NCBI GenBank assembly: GCA_951406725.2
Contig: OX597834.1
Coordinates: 13,082,001-13,146,000, forward strand
Source of the DNA: Octopus vulgaris
Lineage: Eukaryota
Length of the DNA: 64,000 nt
Direction of reading: 5' to 3'
Shown here: in pieces, positions 8,967-9,282 of the stretch
Numbering within the stretch: the stretch's first letter is position 1
Layout of the letters: each line of letters begins with the position of its first letter
Notes under the pieces: generated by a model
Told to the model about the DNA's origin: nothing
Seen by the model: the letters and a program-made list of their open reading frames with translations, nothing else
The model's database searches: none
Translations under genes and position numbers: made by a program

Positions 8967-9003
<37 letters not shown>

Positions 9004-9105
9004 GGAGTAAACACATAAATGTGAAACAAGGTGGAAAAAAGAGTACTCAAATACCAGTGGTAGAGTAATATGCTTTATGTAAAGCAGCAGAAAATTCAAC
9101 AAAAC

Positions 9106-9143
9106 CTGTTACTCTGAGTTTCCCGTTGCCGTTCATCGGACAG
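9106..9143 (-). ncRNA. Minimal hammerhead ribozyme motif (family E, CCGAUGA core)
   Basis: Minus strand: ctgt CCGATGA a-cg-GCAA-cg-g GAAA ctcagag TA acag. Confidence 0.7.
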
Positions 9144-9159
9144 TTTTTGCTAGCGAAAA

Positions 9160-9197
9160 CTGTCCGATGAACGGTAACGGGAAACTCAGAGTAACAG
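9160..9197 (+). ncRNA. Minimal hammerhead ribozyme motif (family E, CCGAUGA core)
   Basis: ctgt CCGATGA a-cg-GTAA-cg-g GAAA ctcagag TA acag. Stem I is ctgt/acag and loop II is GNRA. Confidence 0.7.
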
Positions 9198-9282
9198 GTT
9201 TTGTTGAATTTTCTGCTGCTTTAAATAAAGTATAGTATATATATATATATATATATATATATACTTTATATATATATATATA

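What the first reader, a model, noticed from the sequence alone, without database searches (positions are those of the whole stretch)
9001..9232. Family E: two independent copies share the same asymmetric zero-spacer palindrome with back-to-back ribozymes
Copies 9001-9232 and 48748-48971 lie in opposite orientations. Both fold back 6-8 nt upstream of hammerhead stem I, both end the short arm just after aaataaag, and both end the long arm at ctccggt before (TA)n. The centres differ (gctagc versus tgca), and within each copy both arms share the position-4 base (C in copy 1, T in copy 2). That fits each palindrome being regenerated from one template or homogenised. Loop II varies GCAA/GTAA, staying GNRA.
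Basis: partly seen in the sequence, partly recalled or inferred. Interest (0 to 1): 0.7.

Follow-up and report, generated by a model that had tools for sequence, protein, structure and literature searches.

The report
One-lap hammerhead retrozyme palindromes
These two mirror-image inserts are copies of a very common short repeat carrying a hammerhead ribozyme motif, likely pasted in head-to-head by Penelope-type jumping-gene enzymes (a known pattern), and they probably fold back at nearly the same spot because the copied RNA unit is likely only about 159 letters long and copying would stop after one pass.

Summary
In detail: two 92%-identical, oppositely oriented, zero-spacer palindromes in (TA)n, with back-to-back type I hammerheads and a one-sided 72-nt tail. 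The layout is published for Penelope-like elements (PLEs), and this scan met it repeatedly elsewhere in this genome. Public-run contigs show a high-copy family. All 4 differences shared by both arms of a copy are common family alleles, whereas 4 of 6 single-arm changes are shown to be rare. So each palindrome likely came from one template, not from later homogenisation. Copy 2's exact centre carries about 1% of the neighbouring depth and other junctions vary, so this is not a fixed MITE. Beyond the fold point, contigs continue with six letters and then the element's own first bases (4 nt in 2 of 3 DNA-like runs, 2 nt in the third). That suggests a ~159-nt retrozyme-like unit. The long arms (153 and 149 nt) fall just short of one unit, which would explain the shared fold-back. 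No tandem copy, circle, cleavage or parent PLE was shown. One probable RNA run shows ADAR-like A-to-G changes in the ribozyme core. Verdict: new member of a known kind.

The parts
8969..9001 (.). (TA)n target, left flank of copy 1
9001..9072 (-). 72-nt one-sided tail of copy 1, between the short-arm end and the long-arm end; identical in copy 2
9073..9153 (-). paired part of the long arm of copy 1 (element sense = minus strand); long arm with tail is 153 nt
9100..9149 (-). type I hammerhead motif with extended stem I, core CCGAUGA (C at position 4), 2-bp stem II with GNRA loop, self-complementary stem III; predicted cleavage between 9110 and 9109
   Evidence: cleavage not tested
9150..9153 (.). 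junction of copy 1: self-complementary CTAG, present in the family's upstream sequence and shared by both arms
   Evidence: (loose ends behind 9153)
9150..9230 (+). short (inverted) arm of copy 1 with the second hammerhead motif (9154-9203), ending at AAATAAAG
9231..9337 (.). interrupted (TA)n, right flank of copy 1
48727..48746 (.). (TA)n, left flank of copy 2
48747..48824 (-). short (inverted) arm of copy 2 with an intact hammerhead motif, core CUGAUGA
48823..48824 (.). junction of copy 2: 2-nt self-complementary GC
48823..48899 (+). paired part of the long arm of copy 2; hammerhead damaged by a 1-nt deletion and a stem III change; long arm with tail is 149 nt
48900..48971 (+). 72-nt tail of copy 2, ending CTCCGGT
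48971..49002 (.). (TA)n, right flank of copy 2; a different hammerhead palindrome starts at 49006

Best explanation
Family E is a high-copy hammerhead-motif repeat with two fixed outer ends, likely a ~159-nt non-coding retrozyme-type unit that a Penelope-like enzyme would paste into (TA)n, each palindrome probably being made anew from one RNA template. Shown: layout, fixed ends, shared family alleles within a copy, variable junctions. Inferred steps: (1) the endonuclease cuts (TA)n on both strands. (2) Reverse transcription starts at two fixed internal sites 72 nt apart, the long end and the short end. (3) Both cDNAs pass through the uncleaved or religated hammerhead and stop near the long start site, because the unit (a circle or a unit-length transcript) closes there. 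(4) The two cDNA ends are trimmed and joined at a nearby self-complementary word, CTAG in copy 1 and GC in copy 2, giving a zero-spacer head-to-head palindrome. The two ribozymes face outward as a by-product. A read-through transcript would fold into one long hairpin that sequesters them and attracts ADAR. Odds: PLE-type insertion from one template about 0.85; ~159-nt closed unit about 0.6; two primers rather than one self-copied cDNA about 0.6.
For: Layout matches published PLE features: inverted 5'-truncated copy, one-sided tail, (TA)n bias (PMC8557442 passages and section 11); head-to-head junction palindromes (PMC3846280 passages); opposite-strand hammerhead pairs 100-700 bp apart and palindromic helix III (PMC4209133 parts 1-2 of 4); two internal RT start sites bracketing the tail and cutting of both strands in vitro (PMC11167929 parts 1-2 of 4). 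Short end recurs in 33, 66, 37 and 6 contigs of runs X1, X2, X3, X10 and in 14 and 23 contigs. One template: copy-2 alleles are 27-50% at 9105, 33-68% at 9123 and 34-37% at 48891, and both position-4 types are deep. Private changes at 9079, 9155 and 48860 are opposed by 98-99.8% of depth. Variable junction: copy 2's centre has about 630 against 70,000 (X1) and 1,000-1,400 against 139,000 (X3) depth; other junctions spread over 9078-9153. Unit closure: loose-end consensus behind 9153 reads AATGGA then ACCG, the element's first four bases, in X1 (19 contigs) and X2 (15), and AATGGA-AC then TA repeat in X3 (25); chance about 1.5-4% over 10 offsets. The same upstream bases extend stem I by 4 Watson-Crick pairs. 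Depth falls towards the centre with the same profile as at the fixed tail end in 3 of 3 runs, so most arms reach the fold region. Two junctions stop at the same two bases past 9153. Three junctions have a short arm reaching beyond a tail-anchored long arm, which self-copying cannot give. Of 5 common hammerhead variants, 4 fall on 8 tolerant positions of 50 (p about 0.001, positions chosen after seeing the data).
Against: Closure rests on 4 consensus letters in 2 of 3 runs at agreement 0.58-0.66; after them the consensus does not continue into the tail. No full tandem junction appears in the 2 of 2 joints or in the 15 of 54 shown. No autonomous PLE with these ends was found. The tail is 72 nt, not the published 30-40. 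The hammerhead is weak: 2-bp stem II, no G10.1-C11.1 pair, C4 in copy 1 (U4C lowers activity in vitro, PMC3088659 passage). Single arms fold no better than shuffles (z +1.0 to -1.6), nor does the 153-nt stretch folded as a circle (z +0.3). Asymmetric junctions could be later deletions in unstable palindromes, and copy 2's centre could be a 4-nt slippage from copy 1's type. Contig depth is not copy number, alignment seeding hides some variants, and the share of copy 1's centre could not be separated from arm placement. Linkage in a few master copies would raise the chance of allele sharing well above the 0.002 computed under independence.
Confidence: 0.55

Rival explanations
1. The copies are ordinary 5'-truncated ends of a long autonomous PLE. 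The two centres coincide by chance or because CTAG/GC at the end of extended stem I is a junction hotspot.
For: Known layout. CTAG is one of only two self-complementary 4-mers in the 81-nt arm. The window's 46435-48058 palindrome shows this truncated type, ending an open frame.
Against: Upstream letters match the element's own long end. Little depth is lost between 9110 and 9153, so with a long parent two folds within 2 nt would be unlikely.
Confidence: 0.25
2. A few already palindromic master copies are transcribed as whole hairpins and retrotransposed whole; the centres differ through later deletions.
For: Same short and long ends, near-identical centre and identical tail. GC-TA-GC to GC is a simple slippage.
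Against: Copy 2's exact centre has about 1% of the adjoining depth. Many other junctions exist, and some arms run past the centre into upstream sequence.
Confidence: 0.1
3. One cDNA folds back and copies itself up to the short end (self-priming), instead of two primers acting on the RNA. This rivals step 2-4 only and is compatible with the 159-nt unit.
For: Explains arm identity directly. Self-priming is the published reading of PLE junction palindromes (PMC3846280 passage).
Against: Three junctions have a short arm longer than the tail-anchored long arm. Two RT start sites and two-strand cutting are shown in vitro for another PLE.
Confidence: 0.35
4. The arms started different or mutated after insertion and were homogenised by gene conversion or cruciform repair.
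For: Arms within a copy are closer (2 and 3 differences in 74 columns) than arms between copies (5-8).
Against: All 4 shared differences are common family alleles while 6 private changes persist in one arm.
Confidence: 0.05
5. Family E is a MITE of a TA-targeting DNA transposon.
For: Short, palindromic, high copy, flanked by TA.
Against: The termini are not inverted repeats (12 of 30 match). It has a one-sided tail, variable junctions, and variation concentrated at tolerant hammerhead positions.
Confidence: 0.03

Closest known systems
Inverted 5'-truncated insertions of endonuclease-positive Penelope-like elements (PMC8557442; PMC3846280; PMC11167929), with (TA)n-targeting Hydra/Neptune as the nearest hammerhead-bearing types
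   Same: Head-to-head inverted copy, junction palindrome, one-sided tail with two fixed ends, (TA)n target, hammerhead near the 3' end.
   Different: No ORF in the copies; tail of 72 nt against 30-40; the two copies fold at nearly the same point, likely because the template is only about 159 nt.
Animal non-LTR retrozymes (PMC7229834; bioRxiv 10.64898/2026.07.22.740005)
   Same: Short, non-coding, type I hammerhead with a stem III suited to dimer action, high copy, proposed PLE mobilisation from circles.
   Different: Seen here as sub-unit palindromes, not tandem arrays. The inferred 159 nt is below the ~170-400 nt RNAs of PMC7229834 but inside the 51-972 bp range of the preprint. Circle and cleavage are unshown.
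Minimal PLE hammerheads (PMC4209133)
   Same: Palindromic helix III, an unpaired base after A9, opposite-strand pairs 100-700 bp apart.
   Different: Helix II is 2 bp, not 7-8; no G10.1-C11.1 pair; C4 is a common variant.
L1 twin priming (seen only in a search listing; mechanism recalled)
   Same: Two target ends prime on one RNA and join at microhomology.
   Different: Twin priming inverts without duplicating; here the hammerhead segment is copied twice.

Membership tests
PLE-type inverted insertion | 5'-truncated inverted copy joined head to head | tested here: met
   PMC8557442
PLE-type inverted insertion | tail present at one end only, with fixed boundaries | tested here: met
   72 nt (published 30-40); short end recurs in 33, 66, 37 contigs
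PLE-type inverted insertion | type I hammerhead with palindromic helix III near the 3' end | tested here: met
   3 of 4 arms; stem III self-duplex -9.4 kcal/mol; no Rfam match at gathering score
PLE-type inverted insertion | insertion into (TA)n | tested here: met
   4 of 4 flanks
Autonomous Penelope-like element | RT plus GIY-YIG ORF in the element | tested here: not met
   no ORF in either copy; a parent elsewhere could not be sought, no genome held
Minimal PLE hammerhead (PMC4209133) | G10.1-C11.1 pair and long helix II | tested here: not met
   2-bp stem II flanked by A and a purine
Animal non-LTR retrozyme | short non-coding unit with a type I hammerhead | tested here: met
Animal non-LTR retrozyme | head-to-tail closure or tandem repeats of the unit | tested here: inconclusive
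   4-nt closure in the loose-end consensus of 2 of 3 runs; no full tandem junction among the joints shown
Animal non-LTR retrozyme | self-cleavage and expression as linear or circular monomer RNA | not testable with these tools
   only contigs available; run X10 is a guessed RNA run
MITE (TIR DNA transposon) | terminal inverted repeats at both ends | tested here: not met
   12 of 30 terminal bases match
MITE (TIR DNA transposon) | uniform internal structure across copies | tested here: not met
   variable junctions; copy 2's centre about 1% of depth
MITE (TIR DNA transposon) | TA target-site duplication | tested here: inconclusive
   cannot be read inside (TA)n

The most novel reading that the evidence does not exclude
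Family E is a ~159-nt hammerhead RNA circle so small that the Penelope reverse transcriptase cannot complete more than about one lap, because a closed RNA:DNA hybrid of that size is strained and the start site is occupied. Both cDNAs therefore stop at one point and give MITE-mimicking palindromes, whereas larger retrozyme circles give multi-unit arrays. Circle size would set insertion shape. ADAR editing of core A14, A15.1 and cleavage-site A17 would silence the ribozyme in host RNA.
Probability: 0.3. Interest if true: 0.62.

Novelty: new member of a known kind. Interest (0 to 1): 0.36.

Why it matters
The layout itself is known debris. The value lies in mechanism. How PLE enzymes make inverted ends, and whether retrozymes are copied from circles, are open questions in PMC8557442 and PMC7229834. 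A high-copy family with two fixed starts and a cap near one unit length would make both countable from an assembly alone: long-arm length distribution, allele sharing between arms, junction words. It also warns that some 'MITEs' in repeat libraries may be retroelement palindromes. If the X10 signal is editing, these hairpins are ADAR substrates whose edits hit catalytic bases.

Tried and rejected
Rfam at gathering score: 0 matches in the window. Metagenome scan: 32 loci, all chance matches, longest 32 nt. Viral and prokaryote scans: 0. Earlier findings by sequence and by nearby place: none. Family motifs were absent from the one supplementary file held for PMC8557442 and the one for PMC13282606; repeat libraries outside those files could hold the family. 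No RNA holder was listed. Idea rejected: a transcription initiator just upstream of the centre, suggested by a 10-nt match to the 46435 palindrome; that stretch lies in an open frame there. Idea not supported: junctions clustering at the cleavage site; endpoints pile up next to polymorphic sites and inside the self-complementary stem III, so clipping and microhomology explain them. 'Smallest retrozyme' rejected: 51-972 bp are reported. The 46435-family peptide had no Pfam hit, no homolog and no PDB hit under E 0.7; the representative-protein search had not finished, so its GIY-YIG label is recalled only. One search labelled hammerhead positions off by one; one search corrects it. One search's relaxed motif scan failed through a regex flaw; one search replaces it.

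Full report
Observation. Each is a zero-spacer palindrome with arms of 77-81 nt plus a 72-nt tail on one side, in (TA)n on all 4 flanks. Across 74 aligned arm columns, 4 differences are shared by both arms of a copy and 5 are private to one arm; a sixth private change lies at 9155. The tails are identical. A type I hammerhead descriptor hits 3 of the 4 arms, and 7 sites in the window, against 0.4 per shuffled window. Copy 2's long arm is damaged. Rfam gives no match. The host looks like an octopus; this comes from recall of its repeat landscape and from earlier scan notes, and was not tested.

Family data. No genome is held, and collection scans found no relatives. 20 of 24 listed public runs hold half or more of the sampled words, across 4 organism labels. 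I laid 4 runs on copy 1 and 2 of the same runs on copy 2; 374 to 11,699 contigs mapped per run. These are contigs, so depth is not copy number and tables are cut to the best-supported rows.

One template, not homogenisation. All 4 within-copy shared differences are common family alleles. The copy-2 base has 27-50% at 9105 and 33-68% at 9123 and 34-37% at 48891. Both position-4 types are deep, though each laying mostly sees its own type. By contrast the private changes at 9079, 9155 and 48860 are opposed by 98-99.8% of depth, the 48851 deletion shows as a depth gap with loose ends, and the other two private sites are not listed. If arms were drawn independently, both copies would match at all sites with probability about 0.002; linkage would raise this. 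Gene conversion would be expected to fix new mutations, which is not what is seen.

Not a fixed palindrome. Depth just left of copy 2's centre is about 1% of the depth just right of it in both runs; allowing for word-counting effects it could be a few percent. The share of copy 1's centre could not be isolated. Of the junction rows shown (15 of 54 in table 5, 12 of 29 in table 5c) I tabulated 21 distinct ones, leaving out two 'goes back' rows; one of the 21 is a plain deletion and the other 20 spread over 9078-9153. Later deletions could make some of these. The outer ends are fixed: the short end at AAATAAAG then TA recurs in 33, 66 and 37 contigs. The termini are not inverted repeats, so a MITE is rejected.

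Why the centres coincide. Depth falls towards 9153 with the same profile as at the fixed tail end in 3 of 3 DNA-like runs, so most arms reach the fold region. Loose ends behind 9153 read AATGGA and then ACCG in X1 and X2, and AATGGA-AC then TA repeat in X3. ACCG is the start of the element at 9001; the chance of this is about 1.5-4%. The upstream bases also extend stem I by 4 Watson-Crick pairs, so they belong to the element. This suggests a closed unit of 153 + 6 = 159 nt. The long arms, 153 and 149 nt, are just under one unit. Both junctions sit on self-complementary words of this upstream sequence, CTAG and GC, and two other junctions stop two bases beyond 9153. The closure is a lead: four letters in a low-agreement consensus, with no full tandem junction seen. 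I came to the circle reading after seeing earlier scan notes on larger retrozymes in this genome; they are not independent support.

Mechanism. Most likely a PLE protein cuts (TA)n and primes two cDNAs at fixed sites 72 nt apart on one RNA. Both pass the hammerhead cleavage site, so the template was uncleaved or religated. Both stop near the long start, and they are joined by microhomology. Two start sites and two-strand cutting are shown in vitro for a lizard PLE, whose ribozyme is not needed for insertion (PMC11167929, parts 1-2 of 4). Three junctions with a short arm longer than a tail-anchored long arm favour two primers over self-copying, though deletion could mimic them. Self-priming is the published alternative (PMC3846280, passages).

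Is the ribozyme selected? Of 5 common variants in the 50-nt motif, 4 fall on 8 tolerant positions (p about 0.001, defined after the fact). The fifth is U4C, which lowers activity in vitro but allows viroid infectivity (PMC3088659, passage). Stem III can only form well between two RNAs (-9.4 kcal/mol), as in dimer-acting animal hammerheads. The motif is otherwise weak, single arms fold no better than shuffles, and the whole palindrome would form one hairpin of -124 to -144 kcal/mol. Activity is untested. The one guessed RNA run shows A-to-G at four core or cleavage-site adenines at 4-13% against at most 0.11% elsewhere; without matched DNA this is suggestive only.

Comparison with known systems. 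Inverted truncated copies, tails and (TA)n bias are described in PMC8557442 (passages, section 11, one supplement searched). Opposite-strand hammerhead pairs are described in PMC4209133 (parts 1-2 of 4). Retrozymes and their proposed PLE-driven copying from circles are in PMC7229834 (abstract, passages, discussion) and bioRxiv 10.64898/2026.07.22.740005 (part 1 of 5, passages, section 12; supplements closed). The octopus repeat paper PMC13282606 has no occurrence of hammerhead, ribozyme or palindrome in its main text (passages). PMC8969392 (passages) describes inverted pLTRs for curators. Seven searches showed no paper on this family or on a one-unit cap on arm length; subscription papers and repeat databases were not searched. 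It works like a PLE-mobilised retrozyme. It is not an autonomous PLE, and retrozyme membership is unproven because tandem closure and RNA are not shown.

Verdict. A real feature and a new member of a known kind; interest 0.36. The unit-length explanation of the shared fold-back is the part worth testing.

Noticed in passing
window 9109, 9110, 9119, 9120 (run X10): Sense-strand A-to-G at 12.5, 13.1, 5.8 and 4.1% in 9-19 contigs of the one guessed RNA run laid, against 0.11% or less in 3 other runs. The sites are stem I 1.1, H17, A15.1 and A14; A13, with a 5' G, is not listed. This is ADAR-like, but the opposite-strand UA site 9111 is not listed and no matched DNA exists.
   Followed up: partly
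window 46435-48058: 1.6-kb palindrome in (TA)n with an outward-facing hammerhead in each arm, also with C at position 4. Near the centre each arm ends an open frame that resembles a GIY-YIG C-terminus by recall; database searches gave no hit.
   Followed up: partly
window 49006-49371: A third hammerhead palindrome family (long stem II, CATATG stem III, short asymmetric spacer) sits directly beside copy 2 in the same (TA)n tract.
   Followed up: partly
window 48892-48896 and 9076-9078 (loose ends): 24-65 contigs per site share the tail but diverge upstream, so related families appear to keep the same 3' signal with other bodies.
   Followed up: no
window 48966 back to 48889 (run X3): One contig shows a head-to-tail repeat of the last 78 nt, a partial tandem typical of PLEs.
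   Followed up: no
window 33523-34343; 11757-11850; 7093-7332 and 37614-37767: Further inverted-repeat inserts next to (TA)n without a motif hit; probably more PLE-type ends.
   Followed up: no
window 2701-3107, 29299-29686, 52649-53240: A dispersed repeat with a tandem unit of about 180 nt and no hammerhead hit; 26537-26927, 58615-59005 and 59202-59589 form another young ~390-nt family.
   Followed up: no
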